This document shows, one piece after another, positions 28,977-36,291 of a stretch of 39,521 nucleotides of DNA (positions are counted from its first letter, which is position 1; each line of letters starts with the position of its first letter). This DNA comes from a virus. The stretch lies in UHGV virus genome UHGV-0321984, one strand, 5' to 3'. The notes under the pieces are model-generated. The model did no database searches. It had not been told where the DNA came from and was given only the letters and a program-made list of their open reading frames with translations. A program made the position numbers and the translations under genes.

Positions 28977-31799
28977 CTAAAATTCCAGATTAACATCTGC
29001 ACCTTCGCCCATAGCTTGTGAAATATCGTCTACAAACAATCTAAATGATTGTCTTCCAAGATTGAATTTAAATACAGCTGGTTTAGTAGAGCCGCCCATA
29101 TTTACTTTATGTTCAACTTGTGCACCAATGTTTTTATTTGCATTTTTCAGATTTGCAGCTATATCTACATCAGGATTTGCATTGAAAAGTTCCGCGATAA
29201 AGTCTGCCATACTTCCAACAGTATTTTGTACGTCATTGAATCCTCCTGTCAGTCCTTTATTCAGACCGTTCATAATAGCCTGACCAGCTGGAATCAATAG
29301 CTTTCTATCGTATTGGATAGGTCCTTTGTGTTCACGAATCCAATCACCAATACCTCCAACAAAATCTTGCACAGATTTCCATGCATTTTGTAACCCTTCT
29401 AGAAAACTATCCATGATGGCTTTTCCGGCTGCTAGTAAATCGATATTTTTCAAGTTATCAAACCAGCCAGTTACTCTATCAACAGTATCACTAACAGCAT
29501 TTACTAAATTATCCCACACTTCTTGAGCGCTACTTACTAAATTGTTGAAAGTATCTATAGTGCCTTGTTTTAGGTTTTCCCATCCCTGAATGATGTTATC
29601 CTTAGTTCCAATAACTAGATTAATAAACCAAGCTTTGAAAGAATTCCATAAATCTTTCGCTCCTTGAATCATATTATTAAACAGATCGATTGTCCCTTGT
29701 TTTAGGTTATTCCATCCCTGTTTAATACTATTTACAATATTGTTAGTTGTCTCTTTGATCCATGTAGTAAAAGAATTCCACACATCTTTGATGGTAGAAG
29801 TTAACACATTCCAGATATTTATCACAGTATCCTTTAAGGCTGTGTAATAACCAACAACTATATCTACAAACGTCGTGATAATGTTTTGGATATTTGTAGT
29901 TAATGTAGTCCACAGCATCGAAGCATCTTCTTTTAACTGATTAAAATTGCCTGTTATCAAATCAATCAAAAGCAGAATTGGACCCATTACAGCAGTTTTT
30001 ATAATTTCCCATGCAGAGCCTGCGATTGATCCAATTTGAGACCATAGGTTCGTAAAGAAATCAATCATTGGCTGAAAAACGTTTTTTATGGCAATAACAT
30101 ACGGTGCTAGAATGTTTACAATTCCTTCCCAAGCGGAACTGGCAGCTTCTTTGATGCCGTCCCATATACTCGAAAAGAACTCTTTTGTTTCAGTCCATTT
30201 ATTCTTGATCCAATCTGCCGCTTTCCCAGGAGCTTCTTGAATTGTAGTCCAAACATTGTCTGCACCTTCTTTAATGGACTTCCATAAATTGTTAAACCAT
30301 TCTCCTGTAGATTTCCATGCATTCTGAATCCATTCTACTGCCGAGCTTACAGCAGACTTGATTCCCTCCCATAAGCCAATCCAAAAGTTTCTAAAATCTT
30401 CACTCGTATTCCAAAGATAGATGAAACCTACAACAAGTAGTGCTACCGCAGCTATAACCAATCCGACTGGACTGGTAAGAAAACCTATGGCGGAACCTAA
30501 TTTCTTGAACAAAGAGATTCCGTTACCTAATACACCTAACCCCACTTTCATGGTTTGAAACGCTTTAACCAGCATTCCTAATGCATACAATACTGGCCCA
30601 ATTGCAATAGCGATTGCTCCTATGGCCACTACTAATCTTTGAGTTGATTCTGGAGCACTTACAAATTTTTCTACTAAGCCGGATATGGCATCTGCTACTT
30701 TTTTGATGGATGGTGCTAGAATCTTTTGAATTACAATAGCTGCTGACTCAAAAGCTCCAAACATTTGCTCGATGGAAGAATTCATATTATCTTGCATGGT
30801 CCGAGCCATATCGTCAGCTGCACCATCAGAATCTTTCAGAGATTTTGTTAATTTGCCCAATGAATCAGGTCCTTTATCAATCAAAGCCATCATCCCTGAT
30901 AATGATTCTTGCCCATATAGTGTTACTAAAGCATTTTGTTGTTGTTCAGGCGTCAGGCCTTCAAAAGCTTTTTTAAGTAATTCTACTTGAGTTTTTAAAG
31001 GTTTCATTTTACCGTCAGCATCATAAAACGAAACACCTAAATTATCCATTGTATCTTGCATAGCCTTTGTTGGCCTTGCTAACCTAGACAATGCTCCTCG
31101 CAACGTTGTACCTGCTTGAGAACCCTTAATACCTGCGTCACTCATAATACCAATAGCTGCTGCAGTTTCTTCCAAAGAAATCCCCATTGAATTAGCTACA
31201 GGAGCAACATACTTCAATGCTTCTCCCATGTCTCCAACTTCCGCATTGGTGTCCGCAGCAGCACGAGCAAATACATCAGCGACATGTCCTGCTTCACTTG
31301 CTTCTAAACCAAATCCTCTCAAAGCAGTAGCAGTATTTTCAGAAGCTAGAGCCACATCCCCTCCAGATACAGCTGCTAAGTCTAAAAGACCCGGCATTGC
31401 TTTCATGATTTCTTGTGCGCTAAATCCAGCAGAAGCAAGATTTTCCATGCCGGCAGCCGATTCTTTTGCGCTAAAAGCAGTTTTTGCTCCTAGATCAATC
31501 GCTTGCTGTTTCATCTGTTCAAATGTGTCGCCTGTTGCTCCTGATATAGCTTTTACACGACTCATTTGTTCTTCGAAGTCGCCACCAACTTTAGCAGCTG
31601 CTACGCCTACTCCTATAAGAGGAGTGGTAATATACTTTGTCATTGCGGCACCAGTACCTTGCATCACTTTACCTACAGCGGTTGTCATACTATTTGATTT
31701 CTTTTCAAAAGTCTTAACAGCATCTTGCGCATCTTTAAAAGTCTTTACAAATCCACTATCTGTGGCTTTTAATAAGGCTTCAACAGAAAATTGTTCCAT
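28977..31799 (-). CDS. Tail tape measure protein
   Basis: 940 aa, Ala/Gly-rich with repetitive W/N-rich heptad-like repeats (...WNSF..W...). Located downstream of the G/GT chaperones. Confidence 0.8.
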   Translation of the reverse strand: MEQFSVEALLKATDSGFVKTFKDAQDAVKTFEKKSNSMTTAVGKVMQGTGAAMTKYITTPLIGVGVAAAKVGGDFEEQMSRVKAISGATGDTFEQMKQQAIDLGAKTAFSAKESAAGMENLASAGFSAQEIMKAMPGLLDLAAVSGGDVALASENTATALRGFGLEASEAGHVADVFARAAADTNAEVGDMGEALKYVAPVANSMGISLEETAAAIGIMSDAGIKGSQAGTTLRGALSRLARPTKAMQDTMDNLGVSFYDADGKMKPLKTQVELLKKAFEGLTPEQQQNALVTLYGQESLSGMMALIDKGPDSLGKLTKSLKDSDGAADDMARTMQDNMNSSIEQMFGAFESAAIVIQKILAPSIKKVADAISGLVEKFVSAPESTQRLVVAIGAIAIAIGPVLYALGMLVKAFQTMKVGLGVLGNGISLFKKLGSAIGFLTSPVGLVIAAVALLVVGFIYLWNTSEDFRNFWIGLWEGIKSAVSSAVEWIQNAWKSTGEWFNNLWKSIKEGADNVWTTIQEAPGKAADWIKNKWTETKEFFSSIWDGIKEAASSAWEGIVNILAPYVIAIKNVFQPMIDFFTNLWSQIGSIAGSAWEIIKTAVMGPILLLIDLITGNFNQLKEDASMLWTTLTTNIQNIITTFVDIVVGYYTALKDTVINIWNVLTSTIKDVWNSFTTWIKETTNNIVNSIKQGWNNLKQGTIDLFNNMIQGAKDLWNSFKAWFINLVIGTKDNIIQGWENLKQGTIDTFNNLVSSAQEVWDNLVNAVSDTVDRVTGWFDNLKNIDLLAAGKAIMDSFLEGLQNAWKSVQDFVGGIGDWIREHKGPIQYDRKLLIPAGQAIMNGLNKGLTGGFNDVQNTVGSMADFIAELFNANPDVDIAANLKNANKNIGAQVEHKVNMGGSTKPAVFKFNLGRQSFRLFVDDISQAMGEGADVNLEF

Positions 31800-31815: not shown

Positions 31816-32223
31816 TCAAGAGTTAGCTTTAGTTAGTAAGCTTTGGAATTTTTTATCTTGTTTTGAAAGTTCGGAAACTCCCATGATTGAATCTTCGATT
31901 TTTTGATAATTGAAGAATTCTTCAAAGGATCGATATACAGGAACTGTCTTTTTGCCTACTTTTTTCTCTGCTTGGACTTGCTGATTTGCCCACGCTAATT
32001 CGTGAATCAACTTTTCTTTGTCAAGCCAAGATAACTGGGCTGCAGTCATACGAATGTTGTATTCATATAAAGTCATTCTTTCGATATCTGAGATATTGTT
32101 TATTCTCAAATATCGAAAAGAATTGATAAGAATTTGTTCGTATGCCAGTGCAGAATCTATTCCACTTGTTGTTTTTCCGCTTCTTTCAATTTCTGATTCA
32201 GGTTTCGGACCGCTAACTTTCCC
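31816..32223 (-). CDS. Tail assembly chaperone GT (produced by a -1 frameshift from G)
   Basis: The downstream ORF is in the -1 frame relative to G. The slippery heptamer G_GGA_AAG (32223..32217) lies inside the window where both frames are open; the -1 frame is open from 32253. Confidence 0.55.
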   Translation of the reverse strand, partial: GKVSGPKPESEIERSGKTTSGIDSALAYEQILINSFRYLRINNISDIERMTLYEYNIRMTAAQLSWLDKEKLIHELAWANQQVQAEKKVGKKTVPVYRSFEEFFNYQKIEDSIMGVSELSKQDKKFQSLLTKANS

Positions 32224-32525
32224 GCGTTCGACTCCGCCAATTCTTTTAGGACTTCATCAAACAATTTTTCGATGTCTTTAACTTCATCGATGTAATCATC
32301 CATTTCATCCAACGTAATAGTTTCTTCTTCTGTTCTATTTGCTATTTCTAAGACTCGTGACAACGTGTTGACATTATAAGAACGTAATTCCGGTAAGACT
32401 TTTGCTGAGAGTCCCATTCCGAATTCCATATTTCCATCGATGAAAGGCATCACTTTGTCTAATTCACGTACAAATTTAGTGCCAAATTTAAACGAATATT
32501 CTTTACCTTTAATTTTTAATTTCAA
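32157..32525 (-). CDS. Tail assembly chaperone G
   Basis: 122 aa acidic protein immediately upstream of the tape measure. Contains the canonical slippery site near its 3' end. Confidence 0.6.
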   Translation of the reverse strand: MKLKIKGKEYSFKFGTKFVRELDKVMPFIDGNMEFGMGLSAKVLPELRSYNVNTLSRVLEIANRTEEETITLDEMDDYIDEVKDIEKLFDEVLKELAESNAGKLAVRNLNQKLKEAEKQQVE

Positions 32526-33845: not shown

Positions 33846-34134
33846 TTAAACTATTTCTATATGCTGGTTTTCTAGCTGTTTTTTGTTGCCAAGTCTTTCC
33901 TTCAATCTCGATATAGTCAAATGTAGGGATAGAAAAAAGAGGCTGCGTCCTAATGACCTTCGCCCCTTCTTCCACACTACCAAAAATAGTCACACTTCTA
34001 TCAGTGCCAATATCTGTCACGTTTGCCTCTGTTCTTGTTCTTTCTGGTTTTCCTTCAACCCACTCACCGAGATCTGGATCATATTTAGAGTCAGATGAAC
34101 GTTTAACAAATATAATTTCATCTGTAAATCTCAT
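33808..34134 (-). CDS. Head closure / head-tail adaptor protein (hypothetical)
   Basis: 108-aa ORF between the connector and the gp10-like gene. Confidence 0.4.
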   Translation of the reverse strand: MRFTDEIIFVKRSSDSKYDPDLGEWVEGKPERTRTEANVTDIGTDRSVTIFGSVEEGAKVIRTQPLFSIPTFDYIEIEGKTWQQKTARKPAYRNSLIVQEVVLDEGTT

Positions 34135-34460
34135 ATAAATTTAAGCCTCCCTCGCTTTGGCTTGTACAACTCTTCCTGATCTTTACGCTTAAATTCGTCA
34201 ATCTCATTTTGATACTCTGAAAAATCCGAATCAGGAAAAGCCATAGATAAACCTTCTTGAGAATATGACTGCATACCTTCTTGACCAATTCTATTGAATC
34301 TTTTCAACGATACTTCATATACAACTGTTTCAAATTCTTTAGGAACTTCTTGCGTATTTAACAAGGTTTTCATACGCTCATTCGTTCTTCGCTCAATAAC
34401 TTCAAGCTTTTCATCTAGTGTTCCTTTAAGAAGTTTTTTAATATCCTCTGCAATCGTCAT
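34131..34460 (-). CDS. gp6-like head-tail connector protein
   Basis: 109 aa, MTIAEDIKKLLKGTLDEKLEVIERRTNERMKTLL... typical of the Phage_connect_1 family. Confidence 0.5.
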   Translation of the reverse strand: MTIAEDIKKLLKGTLDEKLEVIERRTNERMKTLLNTQEVPKEFETVVYEVSLKRFNRIGQEGMQSYSQEGLSMAFPDSDFSEYQNEIDEFKRKDQEELYKPKRGRLKFI

Positions 34461-34471
34461 ATTTTTACTTC

Positions 34472-34765
34472 CTAACTAGCAGGTTGACCTGTCACATTGA
34501 TTGAAGTAGTGAATTCTCCAGAAGTAAATGTGAATGTTGCTGATCCTTCTGCTGCAATCGTTCCATCAAAACCACCATTTTCATTTTTGGTCACTGTTGC
34601 GATAGCTCCATCACTTGAAGTTGCTGTAGTAGCTGCAACAACAGTAGCTGCATCGCTAGCATCTGCAGGCACAGCTGAAATAGTAAATGTTTTAGTATCG
34701 CCTACTTTACCGGTCCATGTCTTTTGATTTGGCACAATACCGGTAGCAGGCGTTACGCTTTTGGG
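34472..34765 (-). CDS. Big_2 (Ig-like) domain, predicted to be expressed as a C-terminal extension of the major capsid protein by a -1 frameshift
   Basis: Big_2-like sequence TWTGKVGDTKTFTISAVPADASDAATVVAATTATSSDGAIATVTKNENGGFDGTIAAEGSATFTFTSGEFTTSINVTGQ. It lies in the -1 frame relative to the capsid gene, with slippery C_CCA_AAA at 34765..34759. Confidence 0.5.
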   Translation of the reverse strand, partial: PKSVTPATGIVPNQKTWTGKVGDTKTFTISAVPADASDAATVVAATTATSSDGAIATVTKNENGGFDGTIAAEGSATFTFTSGEFTTSINVTGQPAS

Positions 34766-35676
34766 GAAATCTTCCCAAATGCTTCATCTTTTACAATCAT
34801 AAATCCAACATCCATTGTTGCACGCAAAGCAATCAGTTCTTGCTCAAACAAGTTAACTGGGGTTCCATCTTCATTAGTTAAAGTAGACAATTGGGCTTCT
34901 TCAGAAATCTTAAATGAAATATTATATGGGATTCCATAAAACATGTAATTAAAGTCTCCAGCGTAAAGAGTTCCTTTATCTAAAGACTTAAGGTCTACTA
35001 CTGGTAATCCGTCAATTGTATTAGCAGAGCGATCATAAATAAACTCAACATTTGACCCGACTGTTTGAGCTGCAGAACGTAATTCTGTACGATTTTTTCG
35101 GTTTGAAATAAACGCATTAGGTTCAAATTCATTTTCTGCTAACTTGTCTTCTAAGGCTAGGATATTATCATAAGTCAATCCGCCTTCAACCACATTCCCC
35201 GCACTAATAACTGATCCGTCTAGTGACTGAGGAAAGGGGTTTTCTTTATTTAATAAGGCAGCTGCATCAAATTTTTTATAGAAAGCTTCAGCAATTTTTG
35301 GCTGCATCTCCTCAAAGAAATCTGATAATTTATAATTTAAATATTCACGAGAAACCGGAAGAATGACACCGAGTTTTTTTGCAGTCATCGTAGCTTGCAT
35401 CCATTTAGGTTTAGACGTTTTAATTTTTTCACCTTCACCCACCCAGTATGCGCCTGGTCCTTCTGCAAAGTATTCAAATTTCTTTTCTTTGTCAGTCATT
35501 TCTTCGTATTTTGCTAACTGCATAATCTTAGAATTTTCCATAACTTCACTCAAAATGAGCGTATTATATTTATCAGGAATTTTTCCCTCTTTCGTTTCAT
35601 ATACCAAGACATTATCTGGATCCCATGTTTGAGCAAACATTTGCAAGTTCATTGGTAAAAGTTGTTTCTTTTTCAT
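34753..35676 (-). CDS. Major capsid protein
   Basis: 307 aa, directly after the scaffold gene. N-terminal LLPMNLQMFA motif. Confidence 0.65.
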   Translation of the reverse strand: MKKKQLLPMNLQMFAQTWDPDNVLVYETKEGKIPDKYNTLILSEVMENSKIMQLAKYEEMTDKEKKFEYFAEGPGAYWVGEGEKIKTSKPKWMQATMTAKKLGVILPVSREYLNYKLSDFFEEMQPKIAEAFYKKFDAAALLNKENPFPQSLDGSVISAGNVVEGGLTYDNILALEDKLAENEFEPNAFISNRKNRTELRSAAQTVGSNVEFIYDRSANTIDGLPVVDLKSLDKGTLYAGDFNYMFYGIPYNISFKISEEAQLSTLTNEDGTPVNLFEQELIALRATMDVGFMIVKDEAFGKISPKA

Positions 35677-35688
35677 TAAGTTTTCCTC

Positions 35689-36291
35689 CTATTTGATAAT
35701 TCGATTTTTAGCGGCTAGTTTAGCCACTGTTTCTTTAGTATTTTTCGATGCTGTAAATTGTCCACCTTCATTTGGTGGTGTTTGTCTTGCGTTTTCTCTC
35801 TTAATCAAAGAAGCAAAGTTAGTGATGACTGCTACAGCTTGTTTTGTGGCATCTGCATCATCATAAACAATCAGACCAAGTAAATCATCATCGTGTGGTA
35901 AATTTGCATCTGTCAGCATTTTAGAAGCTTCTTTCGTCATTTCAGATAGTGCCTGTCCACGCTTTAATTCAGCGATTTCAGCTTCTTTTTGTTCCAACTC
36001 ATGCTGTAGTTTTTCTTCCGCATTCATTTTTGCCAACTTTTTAGCTTCTTCTTTTTTTGCTTCTAGTTCTTTTTCCCACGCTGCTTTTGCTTTATTCGTC
36101 TCAGCAGCGATCATTTTCGCTACTTCATCACGAGAAAATGTTTTGCCAGTATTGTTTTCTTCTTTTACTGCGGGCGGTGTCTCTTGTGAGCCAGCTGGTG
36201 GGTTTCCTTGTTGTCCCCCATCACCAGATCCACCATCTCCTGGTTCAGAAAAAAATTGTAAGTTCATTGGCATAAATAAACGTTTTTCCAT
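35689..36291 (-). CDS. Scaffolding protein
   Basis: 200 aa, Glu/Lys-rich coiled coil (KEEAKKLAKMNAEEKLQHELEQKEAEIAELKR). Located between the minor head and capsid genes. N-terminal FMPMNLQFFS motif. Confidence 0.6.
   Translation of the reverse strand: MEKRLFMPMNLQFFSEPGDGGSGDGGQQGNPPAGSQETPPAVKEENNTGKTFSRDEVAKMIAAETNKAKAAWEKELEAKKEEAKKLAKMNAEEKLQHELEQKEAEIAELKRGQALSEMTKEASKMLTDANLPHDDDLLGLIVYDDADATKQAVAVITNFASLIKRENARQTPPNEGGQFTASKNTKETVAKLAAKNRIIK

What the first reader, a model, noticed from the sequence alone, without database searches (positions are those of the whole stretch)
34472..34786. Predicted -1 programmed frameshift fusing a Big_2 Ig-like domain to the C-terminus of the major capsid protein
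The 87-codon ORF directly after the capsid gene encodes a typical bacterial Ig-like (Big_2) domain and has only a GTG start. Its frame is -1 relative to the capsid gene. The -1 frame opens at 34783 (stop at 34786-34784) and the capsid stop is at 34755-34753. In this 30-nt window sits C_CCA_AAA (34765-34759), a valid X_XXY_YYZ slippery heptamer three codons before the stop. Both tRNA-Pro and tRNA-Lys can re-pair. The shift would give ...AFGKISPK-KSVTPATGIVPNQKTWTGKVGDTK... A fraction of capsid subunits would then display an Ig-like domain on the virion surface, as described for other phages.
Basis: partly seen in the sequence, partly recalled or inferred. Interest (0 to 1): 0.6.

Follow-up and report, generated by a model that had tools for sequence, protein, structure and literature searches.

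The report
Capsid–Ig fusion by -1 frameshift
An Enterococcus phage most likely makes a second, longer form of its major coat protein, carrying a small antibody-like domain, by letting ribosomes slip back one base just before the stop codon; this copies a mechanism already proven in Lactobacillus phage A2, so it is a well-supported but ordinary case that public annotations have missed.

Summary
On the minus strand the major capsid gene (35676-34753, PF05065) ends TCC CCA AAA GCG TAA. The -1 frame is open from 34783 to 34475. The heptamer C_CCA_AAA (34765-34759) is in register, and it is the only in-frame CCCAAAA among 8,891 codon positions tested. Two details need correcting. The junction is ...GKISPK|SVTPATG..., with one K, not two. 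The domain is not a "typical" Big_2, because Pfam's model misses it. It is a divergent Big_2-type Ig fold by structure prediction, fold search and homology.

Lactobacillus phage A2, where -1 frameshifting in the capsid gene is experimentally established, has the identical 20 nt CCCCAAAAGCGTAACGCCTG at its unrelated capsid's 3' end, and its extension is homologous (40% identity, E 1e-13). In Enterococcus phages the same Ig cassette sits in the -1 frame behind three different head-protein families. It keeps a slippery heptamer (C_CCA_AAA or A_AAA_AAA) and AAA GCG TAR CGCCT, is under purifying selection (dN/dS 0.09-0.29), and usually lacks any start codon. The window's GTG has no Shine-Dalgarno sequence.

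Verdict: a new member of a known kind, with no frameshift join in either matching phage record. Interest is modest. The portable recoding cassette is the most interesting aspect.

The parts
34753..35676 (-). Major capsid protein gene, zero frame. 307 aa, 34.7 kDa, HK97-type Phage_capsid. Ends ...GKISPKA-TAA.
   Evidence: PF05065, E 5.8e-35; phrog_10 major head protein, 6e-58; mass.
34759..34765 (-). Slippery heptamer C_CCA_AAA (X_XXY_YYZ). P-site codon CCA re-pairs on CCC and A-site codon AAA on AAA. It is followed by GCG TAA.
   Evidence: - One search gives the sequence.
- it is the only in-frame CCCAAAA among 8,891 positions.
- it is conserved while the preceding codon varies (TCC, CGC, AGC, ATC; ACC and GCC in A2) but always ends in C.
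- phage A2 orf5 and orf10 carry the identical site.
34753..34758 (-). Six-nucleotide spacer GCG TAA. It holds the last sense codon and the stop of the capsid gene, between the heptamer and the stem.
   Evidence: AAA GCG TAR is nearly invariant across cassettes attached to unrelated genes, apart from GAG in L032 and GCT in L040.
34690..34752 (-). Predicted stimulatory stem-loop. The 5' arm CGCCUGCUACCGGU (34752-34739) pairs with the 3' arm ACCGGUAAAGUAGGCG (34705-34690), giving 14 bp with a 2-nt bulge.
   Evidence: -: MFE -29.1 kcal/mol, z -2.9, 2 of 200 shuffles fold as well.
- the outer 8-bp helix is paired in 95.8% of cells, but there are 0 compensatory changes.
- synonymous sites in both arms are frozen (H 0-0.17 against a mean of 0.49).
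34475..34759 (-). -1 frame extension, 95 codons, SVTPATGIVPNQK...NVTGQPAS, followed by stop TAG at 34474-34472. Divergent Big_2-type Ig-like domain. With capsid residues 1-306 it gives a 401-aa, 44.0-kDa fusion.
   Evidence: -: phrog_215, 4e-15.
- pLDDT 87.9.
- Foldseek hits to Big_2 and the lambda gpV Ig domain.
- 40% identity to the A2 extension, E 1e-13.
- dN/dS 0.09-0.29.
- mass.
34733..34735 (-). GTG that gene callers use as the start of a separate 87-aa ORF. Probably just an internal Val codon of the fusion.
   Evidence: -: the anti-SD duplex is -2.3 kcal/mol, which is background level (46th percentile of random positions), against -6 to -16 for neighbouring genes.
- in diverged relatives the codon is GTT, GCT, ACG or ACA, so it is not a start.

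Best explanation
Ribosomes translating the major capsid mRNA reach C_CCA_AAA, two codons before the stop. A fraction of them pause over a stem-loop that begins 6 nt downstream. The peptidyl-tRNA-Pro and aminoacyl-tRNA-Lys slip back one base onto CCC AAA, and translation continues in the -1 frame through AGC GTA ACG... for 95 more codons. This gives a 401-aa capsid-Ig fusion (44.0 kDa) alongside the standard 307-aa capsid protein (34.7 kDa).

The fusion co-assembles into the HK97-type shell, so a sub-stoichiometric number of subunits display a Big_2-type Ig-like domain on the outer surface. There it probably makes weak contacts with carbohydrates or cell surfaces, or helps stabilise the shell.

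Shown directly by the sequence and computations here:
- the geometry of the frames, heptamer and spacer;
- the Ig fold of the extension;
- homology and nucleotide identity with the phage A2 cassette;
- conservation of the -1 ORF without start codons;
- purifying selection on that ORF.

Inferred:
- that slippage happens in this phage;
- its efficiency;
- the stimulatory role of the stem-loop;
- surface display and the function of the domain.
For: 1. Geometry. The heptamer is in register inside a 28-nt overlap and is the only in-frame CCCAAAA in the window.

2. Homology to a proven case.
   - Phage A2 orf5 ends ACC CCA AAA GCG TAA CGCCTG, which is 20 nt identical to the window.
   - The two capsids are not detectably similar by BLASTP (E 1.3).
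   - The -1 extensions are 40% identical, E 1e-13.
   - -1 frameshifting that produces an Ig-like extension of the A2 head protein is established (PMC5009743; PMC7260188, citing Garcia 2004 and Rodriguez 2005).

3. Comparative evidence.
   - The Ig cassette lies in the -1 frame behind phrog_10, phrog_840 and phrog_267 head proteins, always with C_CCA_AAA or A_AAA_AAA followed by GCG TAR CGCCT.
   - The residue before CCA changes (S, R, I, T, A) but its third base stays C.

4. No independent start.
   - Nine of the ten diverged Enterococcus cassettes examined have no ATG, GTG or TTG within the first 30 or more codons. The tenth (L124) has its first at codon 21. L077 has none in 97 codons.
   - The peptide [PK]KSV[TA]P..TGI.PSQKTWTG is nevertheless conserved from the heptamer onward.
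   - dN/dS is 0.09-0.29.
   - The window's GTG has a background-level SD score.

5. RNA element.
   - The stem-loop starts 6 nt after the heptamer, with z = -2.9.
   - The outer helix is kept in 14 of 15 cassettes.
   - 4-fold sites in the spacer and both arms are invariant or nearly so. Six of the 8 low-variability 4-fold columns, out of 41, fall there.

6. The junction tolerates added domains. Relatives of this capsid at 60-73% identity carry in-frame C-terminal domains at the same point.
Against: - There are no experimental data for this phage.
- The stem-loop has no compensatory base changes, and both arms encode conserved residues, so protein constraints explain part of its conservation.
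- The predicted A2 structure is different and is not more stable than shuffled sequences.
- A GTG does exist 18 nt after the capsid stop in this phage and in A2, so some independent or re-initiated translation cannot be excluded.
- None of 1,777 database proteins is an annotated fusion. This reflects annotation practice and says nothing about the biology.
- CCA to CCC re-pairing relies on wobble tolerance of tRNA-Pro(UGG). This is general knowledge and was not tested here.
Confidence: 0.85

Rival explanations
1. The 87-codon ORF is a separate gene, translated on its own from GTG 34735. It would make a free 8.6-kDa Ig-like decoration or accessory protein. Both matching GenBank records annotate it this way.
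For: An in-frame GTG exists. PQ283533 and PQ554527 annotate a separate CDS. Gene callers produce 66-104-aa proteins for relatives. Free Ig-like capsid decoration proteins exist in other phages, for example chains in the N4 capsid structure.
Against: - The GTG has no Shine-Dalgarno sequence: -2.3 kcal/mol, the 46th percentile of random positions, against -6 to -16 for neighbouring genes.
- In diverged relatives the GTG is replaced by non-start codons, and several ORFs have no early start at all.
- The 9 codons between the heptamer and the GTG are conserved as protein.
- The homologous A2 ORF also has a GTG at that position, yet it is documented as expressed by frameshifting.
Confidence: 0.07
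2. Termination-reinitiation. Ribosomes that finish the capsid at TAA scan 18 nt and restart at GTG 34735, so a free Ig protein is made in amounts coupled to the capsid.
For: The stop and the GTG are close together, 18 nt apart. Coupled reinitiation without a strong SD sequence is known in bacteria (general knowledge).
Against: The same comparative argument applies: most relatives have no start codon. This model does not explain the conserved slippery heptamer, the invariant third-position C before it, or the conserved peptide upstream of the GTG.
Confidence: 0.03
3. The frame change comes from RNA polymerase slippage on the A-run, or the ORF is an untranslated relic of a former in-frame fusion.
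For: Relatives with A_AAA_AAA have 7 consecutive A residues, where transcriptional slippage is conceivable. In-frame fusions exist in the same capsid family.
Against: The window has only 4 A residues, too few for efficient transcriptional slippage (general knowledge). dN/dS of 0.09-0.29, with dS near 1 or above, rules out a relic. The fold is confidently predicted.
Confidence: 0.03

Closest known systems
Lactobacillus (Lacticaseibacillus) phage A2 major head protein gp5A/gp5B -1 frameshift (Garcia et al. 2004, J Bacteriol 186:1714), and the A2 major tail protein frameshift (Rodriguez et al. 2005)
   Same: - The slippery heptamer, spacer and stop are identical: C CCA AAA GCG TAA.
- The first 6 nt after the stop, CGCCTG, are also identical, giving 20 nt in all.
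- The extension is homologous: 40% identity, E 1e-13. It is Big_2-type.
- It sits in the same position, at the C-terminus of the HK97-type capsid protein.
- A2 orf10 (the tail protein) reuses C CCA AAA GCG TAG.
   Different: - The capsid proteins are not detectably similar. The A2 capsid has an N-terminal pro-region that is cleaved off, whereas this phage has a separate DUF4355 scaffold protein.
- The predicted downstream RNA structures differ.
- The host genus differs.
- This phage's tail tube gene has no such cassette.
Ig-like domains added to phage structural proteins by programmed frameshifts (Fraser et al. 2006, J Mol Biol 359:496; T3 10A/10B; Listeria phages A118, A500 and PSA), as summarised in Atkins et al. 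2016 (PMC5009743)
   Same: A C-terminal Ig-like domain is added to a fraction of major capsid subunits through recoding near the stop codon. Across relatives the domain may be present, absent, in frame or out of frame.
   Different: The review suggests that domains land in or out of frame by chance and that frameshifting evolves afterwards. Here the recoding signal appears to travel with the domain. PSA uses +1 frameshifting.
Lambda G/GT-type tail assembly chaperone frameshift
   Same: It is a -1 frameshift on an X_XXY_YYZ heptamer in a phage structural operon. This same window carries a canonical example, G_GGA_AAG at 32223-32217.
   Different: It serves a different purpose, setting the stoichiometry of an assembly chaperone rather than modifying a virion surface protein. 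The heptamer differs, and the extension is not an Ig domain.

Membership tests
-1 programmed ribosomal frameshift site (bacterial/phage X_XXY_YYZ type) | Slippery heptamer X_XXY_YYZ in the zero-frame register, located inside the overlap of the two frames | tested here: met
   C_CCA_AAA lies at 34765-34759. The -1 frame is open from 34783 and the zero-frame stop is at 34755. The chance of any such heptamer in the overlap is about 0.04, and this one is unique in the window.
-1 programmed ribosomal frameshift site (bacterial/phage X_XXY_YYZ type) | Downstream stimulatory RNA structure 5-9 nt after the heptamer | tested here: inconclusive
   A 14-bp stem-loop starts 6 nt downstream, with z -2.9. 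It is conserved, with frozen synonymous sites. It has no compensatory substitutions and is not shared with A2.
-1 programmed ribosomal frameshift site (bacterial/phage X_XXY_YYZ type) | The -1 ORF is conserved as protein and depends on the upstream gene, with no start codon of its own | tested here: met
   dN/dS is 0.09-0.29. Most diverged relatives have no early start codon, and L077 has none at all. The GTG has no SD sequence.
-1 programmed ribosomal frameshift site (bacterial/phage X_XXY_YYZ type) | A trans-frame protein product is detected | not testable with these tools
   This needs proteomics or a reporter assay. It has been shown for the homologous A2 cassette in the literature.
Phage A2-type capsid/tail Ig frameshift cassette | C CCA AAA GCG TAR junction followed by a homologous Big_2-type domain in the -1 frame | tested here: met
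   Twenty nucleotides are identical to A2 orf5. The extension is 40% identical, E 1e-13.
Pfam Big_2 (PF02368) bacterial Ig-like domain group 2 | Score above the Pfam gathering threshold | tested here: not met
   There is no Big_2 hit, even at E <= 10.
Pfam Big_2 (PF02368) bacterial Ig-like domain group 2 | Big_2-type Ig beta-sandwich fold and transitive homology to bona fide Big_2 domains | tested here: met
   - Model with pLDDT 88.
- Foldseek top hits are Big_2-CBM56 (7r3t), the lambda gpV Ig domain (2l04, 7t4f) and LigA.
- Profile hits fall in proteins with 2 to 8 Big_2 repeats.
- The homologous A2 extension passes Big_2 at 30.6 bits against a cut-off of 22.8.
HK97-fold major capsid protein (Pfam Phage_capsid PF05065) | Pfam score above threshold, and the gene lies between the scaffold and head-tail connector genes | tested here: met
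   121.5 bits against a cut-off of 24.2. A DUF4355 scaffold gene lies upstream and a Phage_connect_1 gene downstream.

The most novel reading that the evidence does not exclude
The slippery heptamer, the spacer and stop (AAA GCG TAR), the 5' arm of the stem (CGCCU) and the Ig domain together form one self-contained, portable recoding cassette. It moves by recombination between unrelated phage structural genes: at least three Enterococcus head-protein families, plus the capsid and the tail protein of Lactobacillus phage A2. It brings its own frameshift signal with it. On this reading, sub-stoichiometric display is an inherited property of the module and does not evolve anew after an out-of-frame insertion.
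Probability: 0.55. Interest if true: 0.45.

Novelty: new member of a known kind. Interest (0 to 1): 0.33.

Why it matters
Practical value. A widespread group of Enterococcus faecium-type temperate phages probably carries a second capsid species that current annotations miss. Both matching GenBank records call it a separate hypothetical or "major head" protein, and no fusion exists among 1,777 database relatives. Correct annotation affects virion proteomics, cryo-EM interpretation, and any use of the capsid C-terminus for display.

Conceptual value. The same capsid family shows four states at one junction: no extension, in-frame domains, and two different -1-frame Ig domains. The recoding signal is identical at the nucleotide level in unrelated genes of phages from different host genera. 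This makes the group a clean natural system for two questions: whether frameshift signals travel with Ig domains, and why partial rather than full occupancy is selected.

The phenomenon itself is textbook, through phages A2 and T3 and Fraser et al. 2006.

Tried and rejected
- Pfam on the 103-aa -1 product gave no Big_2 hit at E <= 0.01 or <= 10. The "typical Big_2" wording is rejected. Membership was recovered through fold, profile and transitive evidence.
- A genome-contig scan with the Ig alignment found no confirmed relatives.
- The primary A2 papers (PMC355979, PMC1291274) are not held. I read the A2 genome directly instead, together with reviews that cite those papers.
- Literature searches for an Enterococcus capsid-Ig frameshift and for 'CCCAAAA' returned nothing relevant. 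The phiEf11 paper concerns a different, speculative A-run site with a 21-aa extension.
- I looked for covariation in the stem-loop and found none: 0 compensatory pairs, and shuffles do equally well. The structure therefore rests on thermodynamics and synonymous-site conservation only.
- I searched for an annotated fusion protein in the 5.8-billion-protein collection and found none.
- P0128, at 94% query coverage, looked like an in-frame fusion of the same Ig domain. Its C-terminal domain is unrelated.
- An upstream SD-like stimulator (GGGAAG, 5 nt before the heptamer) was considered by eye. It was rejected because it is not conserved in relatives.
- The tail tube gene of this window was checked for a second A2-like cassette. 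Its -1 extension is only 20 codons.
Full report
**1. What is in the sequence.**

All features lie on the minus strand. The major capsid gene runs 35676..34753 (307 aa; PF05065 Phage_capsid E 5.8e-35; phrog_10 major head protein). It sits between a DUF4355 scaffold gene (36291..35689) and a gp6-like head-tail connector gene (34460..34131).

The capsid gene ends ...GCA TTT GGG AAG ATT TCC CCA AAA GCG TAA, with the stop at 34755-34753. The -1 frame has a TGA at 34786-34784. It is then open from 34783 to a TAG at 34474-34472. The 87-codon ORF that gene callers report (34735..34472, GTG start) is the downstream part of this open frame.

C_CCA_AAA occupies 34765-34759 in the X_XXY_YYZ register.

One detail is wrong. 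After re-pairing on CCC AAA the next codon is AGC, so the junction is ...GKISPK|SVTPATGIVPNQK..., with one K and not two. The fusion is 401 aa and 44.0 kDa. The capsid alone is 307 aa and 34.7 kDa, a difference of 9.2 kDa.

**2. Is it more than chance?**

Eight in-frame heptamer positions fit in the overlap. In-frame XXXYYYZ heptamers occur at 44 of 8,891 codon positions in the long minus-strand ORFs of this window. The chance of at least one in the overlap is therefore about 0.04. CCCAAAA occurs in frame exactly once, at this site. That figure alone is only suggestive. The comparative data below settle the question.

**3. The extension is an Ig-like domain, but not a "typical" Big_2.**

Pfam gives no Big_2 hit at E <= 0.01 or <= 10. 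Other evidence places it in the Big_2 group:

- PHROGs gives phrog_215, 'structural protein with Ig domain', at 4.4e-15.
- An AlphaFold model built from 19 homologues has mean pLDDT 87.9. It is an all-beta sandwich with one short helix.
- Foldseek against the PDB returns the Big_2-CBM56 domain of Paenibacillus (7r3t), the lambda tail-tube gpV C-terminal Ig domain (2l04, 7t4f), Leptospira LigA and LigB, SbsC, and chains of the phage N4 capsid structure.
- A full HMMER profile search finds 72 relatives. These are small orphan ORFs plus large proteins in which the matching repeats are Pfam Big_2.

I treat it as a divergent Big_2-type domain.

**4. The closest known system is phage A2, and the match reaches the nucleotide level.**

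Lactobacillus phage A2 is a documented case in which -1 frameshifting adds an Ig-like extension to the major head protein. A second case affects its major tail protein (review PMC5009743; PMC7260188; both cite Garcia et al. 2004 and Rodriguez et al. 2005). The primary papers are not held, so I read the A2 genome (NC_004112) directly.

- orf5 ends ...TAC ACC CCA AAA GCG TAA CGCCTGACGG.
- orf10 ends ...ATT GCC CCA AAA GCG TAG.
- The window and A2 orf5 share 20 identical nucleotides, CCCCAAAAGCGTAACGCCTG.
- The two capsid proteins are not detectably similar by BLASTP (best E 1.3).
- The -1 extensions are homologous, with 40% identity over 90 residues, E 1e-13.
- The A2 extension passes Pfam Big_2 at 30.6 bits against a cut-off of 22.8.

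The window therefore carries a homologue of an experimentally validated recoding cassette.

**5. Comparative evidence from Enterococcus phages.**

The window is 99.3% identical over the 1.5 kb tested to Enterococcus phage vB_ElaS_B1578 (PQ283533) and to a record labelled Acinetobacter phage D2SVT (PQ554527). Both annotate the Ig ORF as a separate gene, with no frameshift join.

Eighty IMG/VR loci encode relatives of the capsid at 70-100% identity. Their 3' ends fall into four states:

- **A.** C_CCA_AAA plus a 93-codon extension beyond the capsid stop in the -1 frame. This is the state found in this window.
- **B.** A different Ig domain, 92 codons long, in the -1 frame behind GCG GGG GAG TAA or GTG GGG AAG TAA.
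- **C.** No extension.
- **D.** An in-frame C-terminal domain.

A database search with the predicted fusion found no annotated fusion among 1,777 relatives. It did find many 398-434-aa relatives with in-frame C-terminal domains at the same junction, after ...MIVKDEAF.K. These domains are PF18316 SbsC-like, or another domain of about 125 aa. The capsid C-terminus is thus a hotspot where extra domains are tolerated.

Searching IMG/VR with the Ig alignment shows the same Ig cassette in the -1 frame behind other head proteins:

- phrog_840 head proteins (L120, L122, L123, L126; phiFL4A-like phages), with the junction GYA AAA AAA GCG TAR;
- a phrog_267 head protein (L138), with the junction TCC CCA AAA GCG TAG.

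All Enterococcus cassettes keep a slippery heptamer (C_CCA_AAA or A_AAA_AAA) followed by G(C/A)(G/T) TAR and then (C/T)GCCT. The commonest form by far is GCG TAR CGCCT. The codon before CCA encodes Ser, Arg, Ile, Thr or Ala in different cassettes, yet it always ends in C. Selection is therefore acting on that nucleotide and not on the amino acid. This is what a slippery site predicts.

**6. The ORF is translated but has no start codon of its own.**

- Nine of the ten diverged Enterococcus cassettes examined have no in-frame ATG, GTG or TTG in the first 30 to 84 codons.
- The tenth, L124, has its first (a GTG) at codon 21.
- L077 has none in all 97 codons.
- The window's GTG is replaced by GTT, GCT, ACG or ACA in these relatives.
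- The peptide is nevertheless conserved from the heptamer onward ([PK]KSV[TA]P..TGI.PSQKTWTG).
- Pairwise dN/dS is 0.09-0.29, at dS of 0.7-1.6.

In the window, the 17 nt upstream of the GTG pair with the anti-SD sequence at only -2.3 kcal/mol. That is the 46th percentile of random positions. The well-defined neighbouring genes score -6 to -16. Independent initiation is therefore not the conserved way this domain is expressed.

**7. The stimulatory element.**

Six nucleotides after the heptamer, CGCCUGCUACCGGU pairs with ACCGGUAAAGUAGGCG, giving 14 bp with a 2-nt bulge. The MFE is -29.1 kcal/mol and z is -2.9, with 2 of 200 shuffles folding as well.

- The outer 8-bp helix is kept in 14 of 15 cassettes (95.8% of cells paired).
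- It varies only by changes that keep wobble pairing. There are no compensatory double changes, and shuffled controls score as well.
- Independent support comes from synonymous sites. Third-base heterozygosity is 0.00 for the six codons from the heptamer through CCU, two of which lie beyond the capsid stop and are not dual-coding. It is 0.17, 0.17 and 0.00 for GGU, GUA and GGC in the 3' arm. The mean over 41 four-fold columns is 0.49. Six of the eight least variable four-fold columns fall in the spacer or the arms.
- The A2 sequence folds differently. Its weak stem starts 9 nt downstream and is no more stable than shuffled sequences.

The structure is plausible and under nucleotide-level constraint, but it is not proven.

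**8. Mechanism and function.**

- **Best explanation (confidence 0.85).** A canonical tandem-slippage -1 PRF at C_CCA_AAA produces a minority 44-kDa capsid-Ig fusion, which co-assembles with the 34.7-kDa capsid protein.
- **Surface display.** This is inferred by analogy with A2 and T3, and from the in-frame fusions in the same family.
- **Role of the domain.** Weak adhesion or capsid stabilisation is the likely role. This is inference from the literature on phage Ig-like domains.
- **Rivals.** Independent initiation at the GTG, termination-reinitiation, transcriptional slippage and an untranslated relic are each contradicted by the comparative data. A minor contribution from the GTG in this particular phage cannot be excluded.

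**9. Novelty.**

The phenomenon and this specific cassette type are known, so this is a new member of a known kind. It carries no frameshift join in either matching phage record. The most interesting by-product concerns how the signal spreads. The recoding signal appears to travel with the Ig domain as one portable module, across unrelated capsid and tail genes and across host genera. The published suggestion is different: that domains land out of frame by chance and that frameshifting is selected afterwards.

Noticed in passing
window 32157-32525 (-), heptamer 32223-32217; -1 frame to about 31819: The tail assembly chaperone gene carries an in-frame G_GGA_AAG, the same heptamer as lambda G/GT. 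The -1 frame from that point is open for 135 codons and ends just before the tape-measure ATG at 31799. This is a classic G/GT-type frameshift.
   Followed up: partly
L033, L036, L039, L041, L042, L064-L072, L074 (capsid 3' ends, about locus 2380-2700): Relatives of this capsid at 86-99% identity carry a different Ig domain (He_PIG/Big_2) of about 92 codons in the -1 frame. It has no start codon in the stretch read, about the first 30 codons. The only candidate slip site is a non-canonical G_GGG_GAG or G_GGG_AAG directly before TAA. In some loci the -1 frame opens just 13 nt before the stop. The G-run pairs with a downstream UCCCC. The slip mechanism is unexplained.
   Followed up: partly
L081 106-1305; P0125-P0223, P0128, P0141: Many relatives of the same capsid family (60-73% identity) have in-frame C-terminal domains at the same junction after ...MIVKDEAF.K. 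These are PF18316 SbsC-like Ig domains or an unrelated domain of about 125 aa. Others (L052, L056, L060, L073, L075, L078) have no extension. The capsid C-terminus is a hotspot for domain accretion.
   Followed up: partly
PQ554527.1 (L002): The record named 'Acinetobacter phage D2SVT' (host A. baumannii AB5075) is 99.3% identical, over the 1.5 kb tested, to this window and to Enterococcus phage vB_ElaS_B1578. All other relatives are enterococcal, so the host label looks doubtful.
   Followed up: no
L124 1064-1791: Here the Ig cassette (ATC CCA AAA GCG TAG) follows a 147-aa scaffold-like ORF (PF06810, phrog_194) ending ...YIPKA, with no capsid gene in between. This is probably a deletion in a defective prophage, on a 7.5-kb contig.
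   Followed up: partly
H5-H8: Enterococcus phages EFP1, AE4_2, phiFL4A (about 24.6-25.4 kb in the records); L122, L126-L136: E. faecalis phiFL4A-like phages carry the homologous Ig cassette behind a phrog_840 major head protein, with the junction GTA AAA AAA GCG TAA (A_AAA_AAA). The records annotate it as hypothetical (gp40) or, in AE4_2, as 'tail tube protein'.
   Followed up: partly
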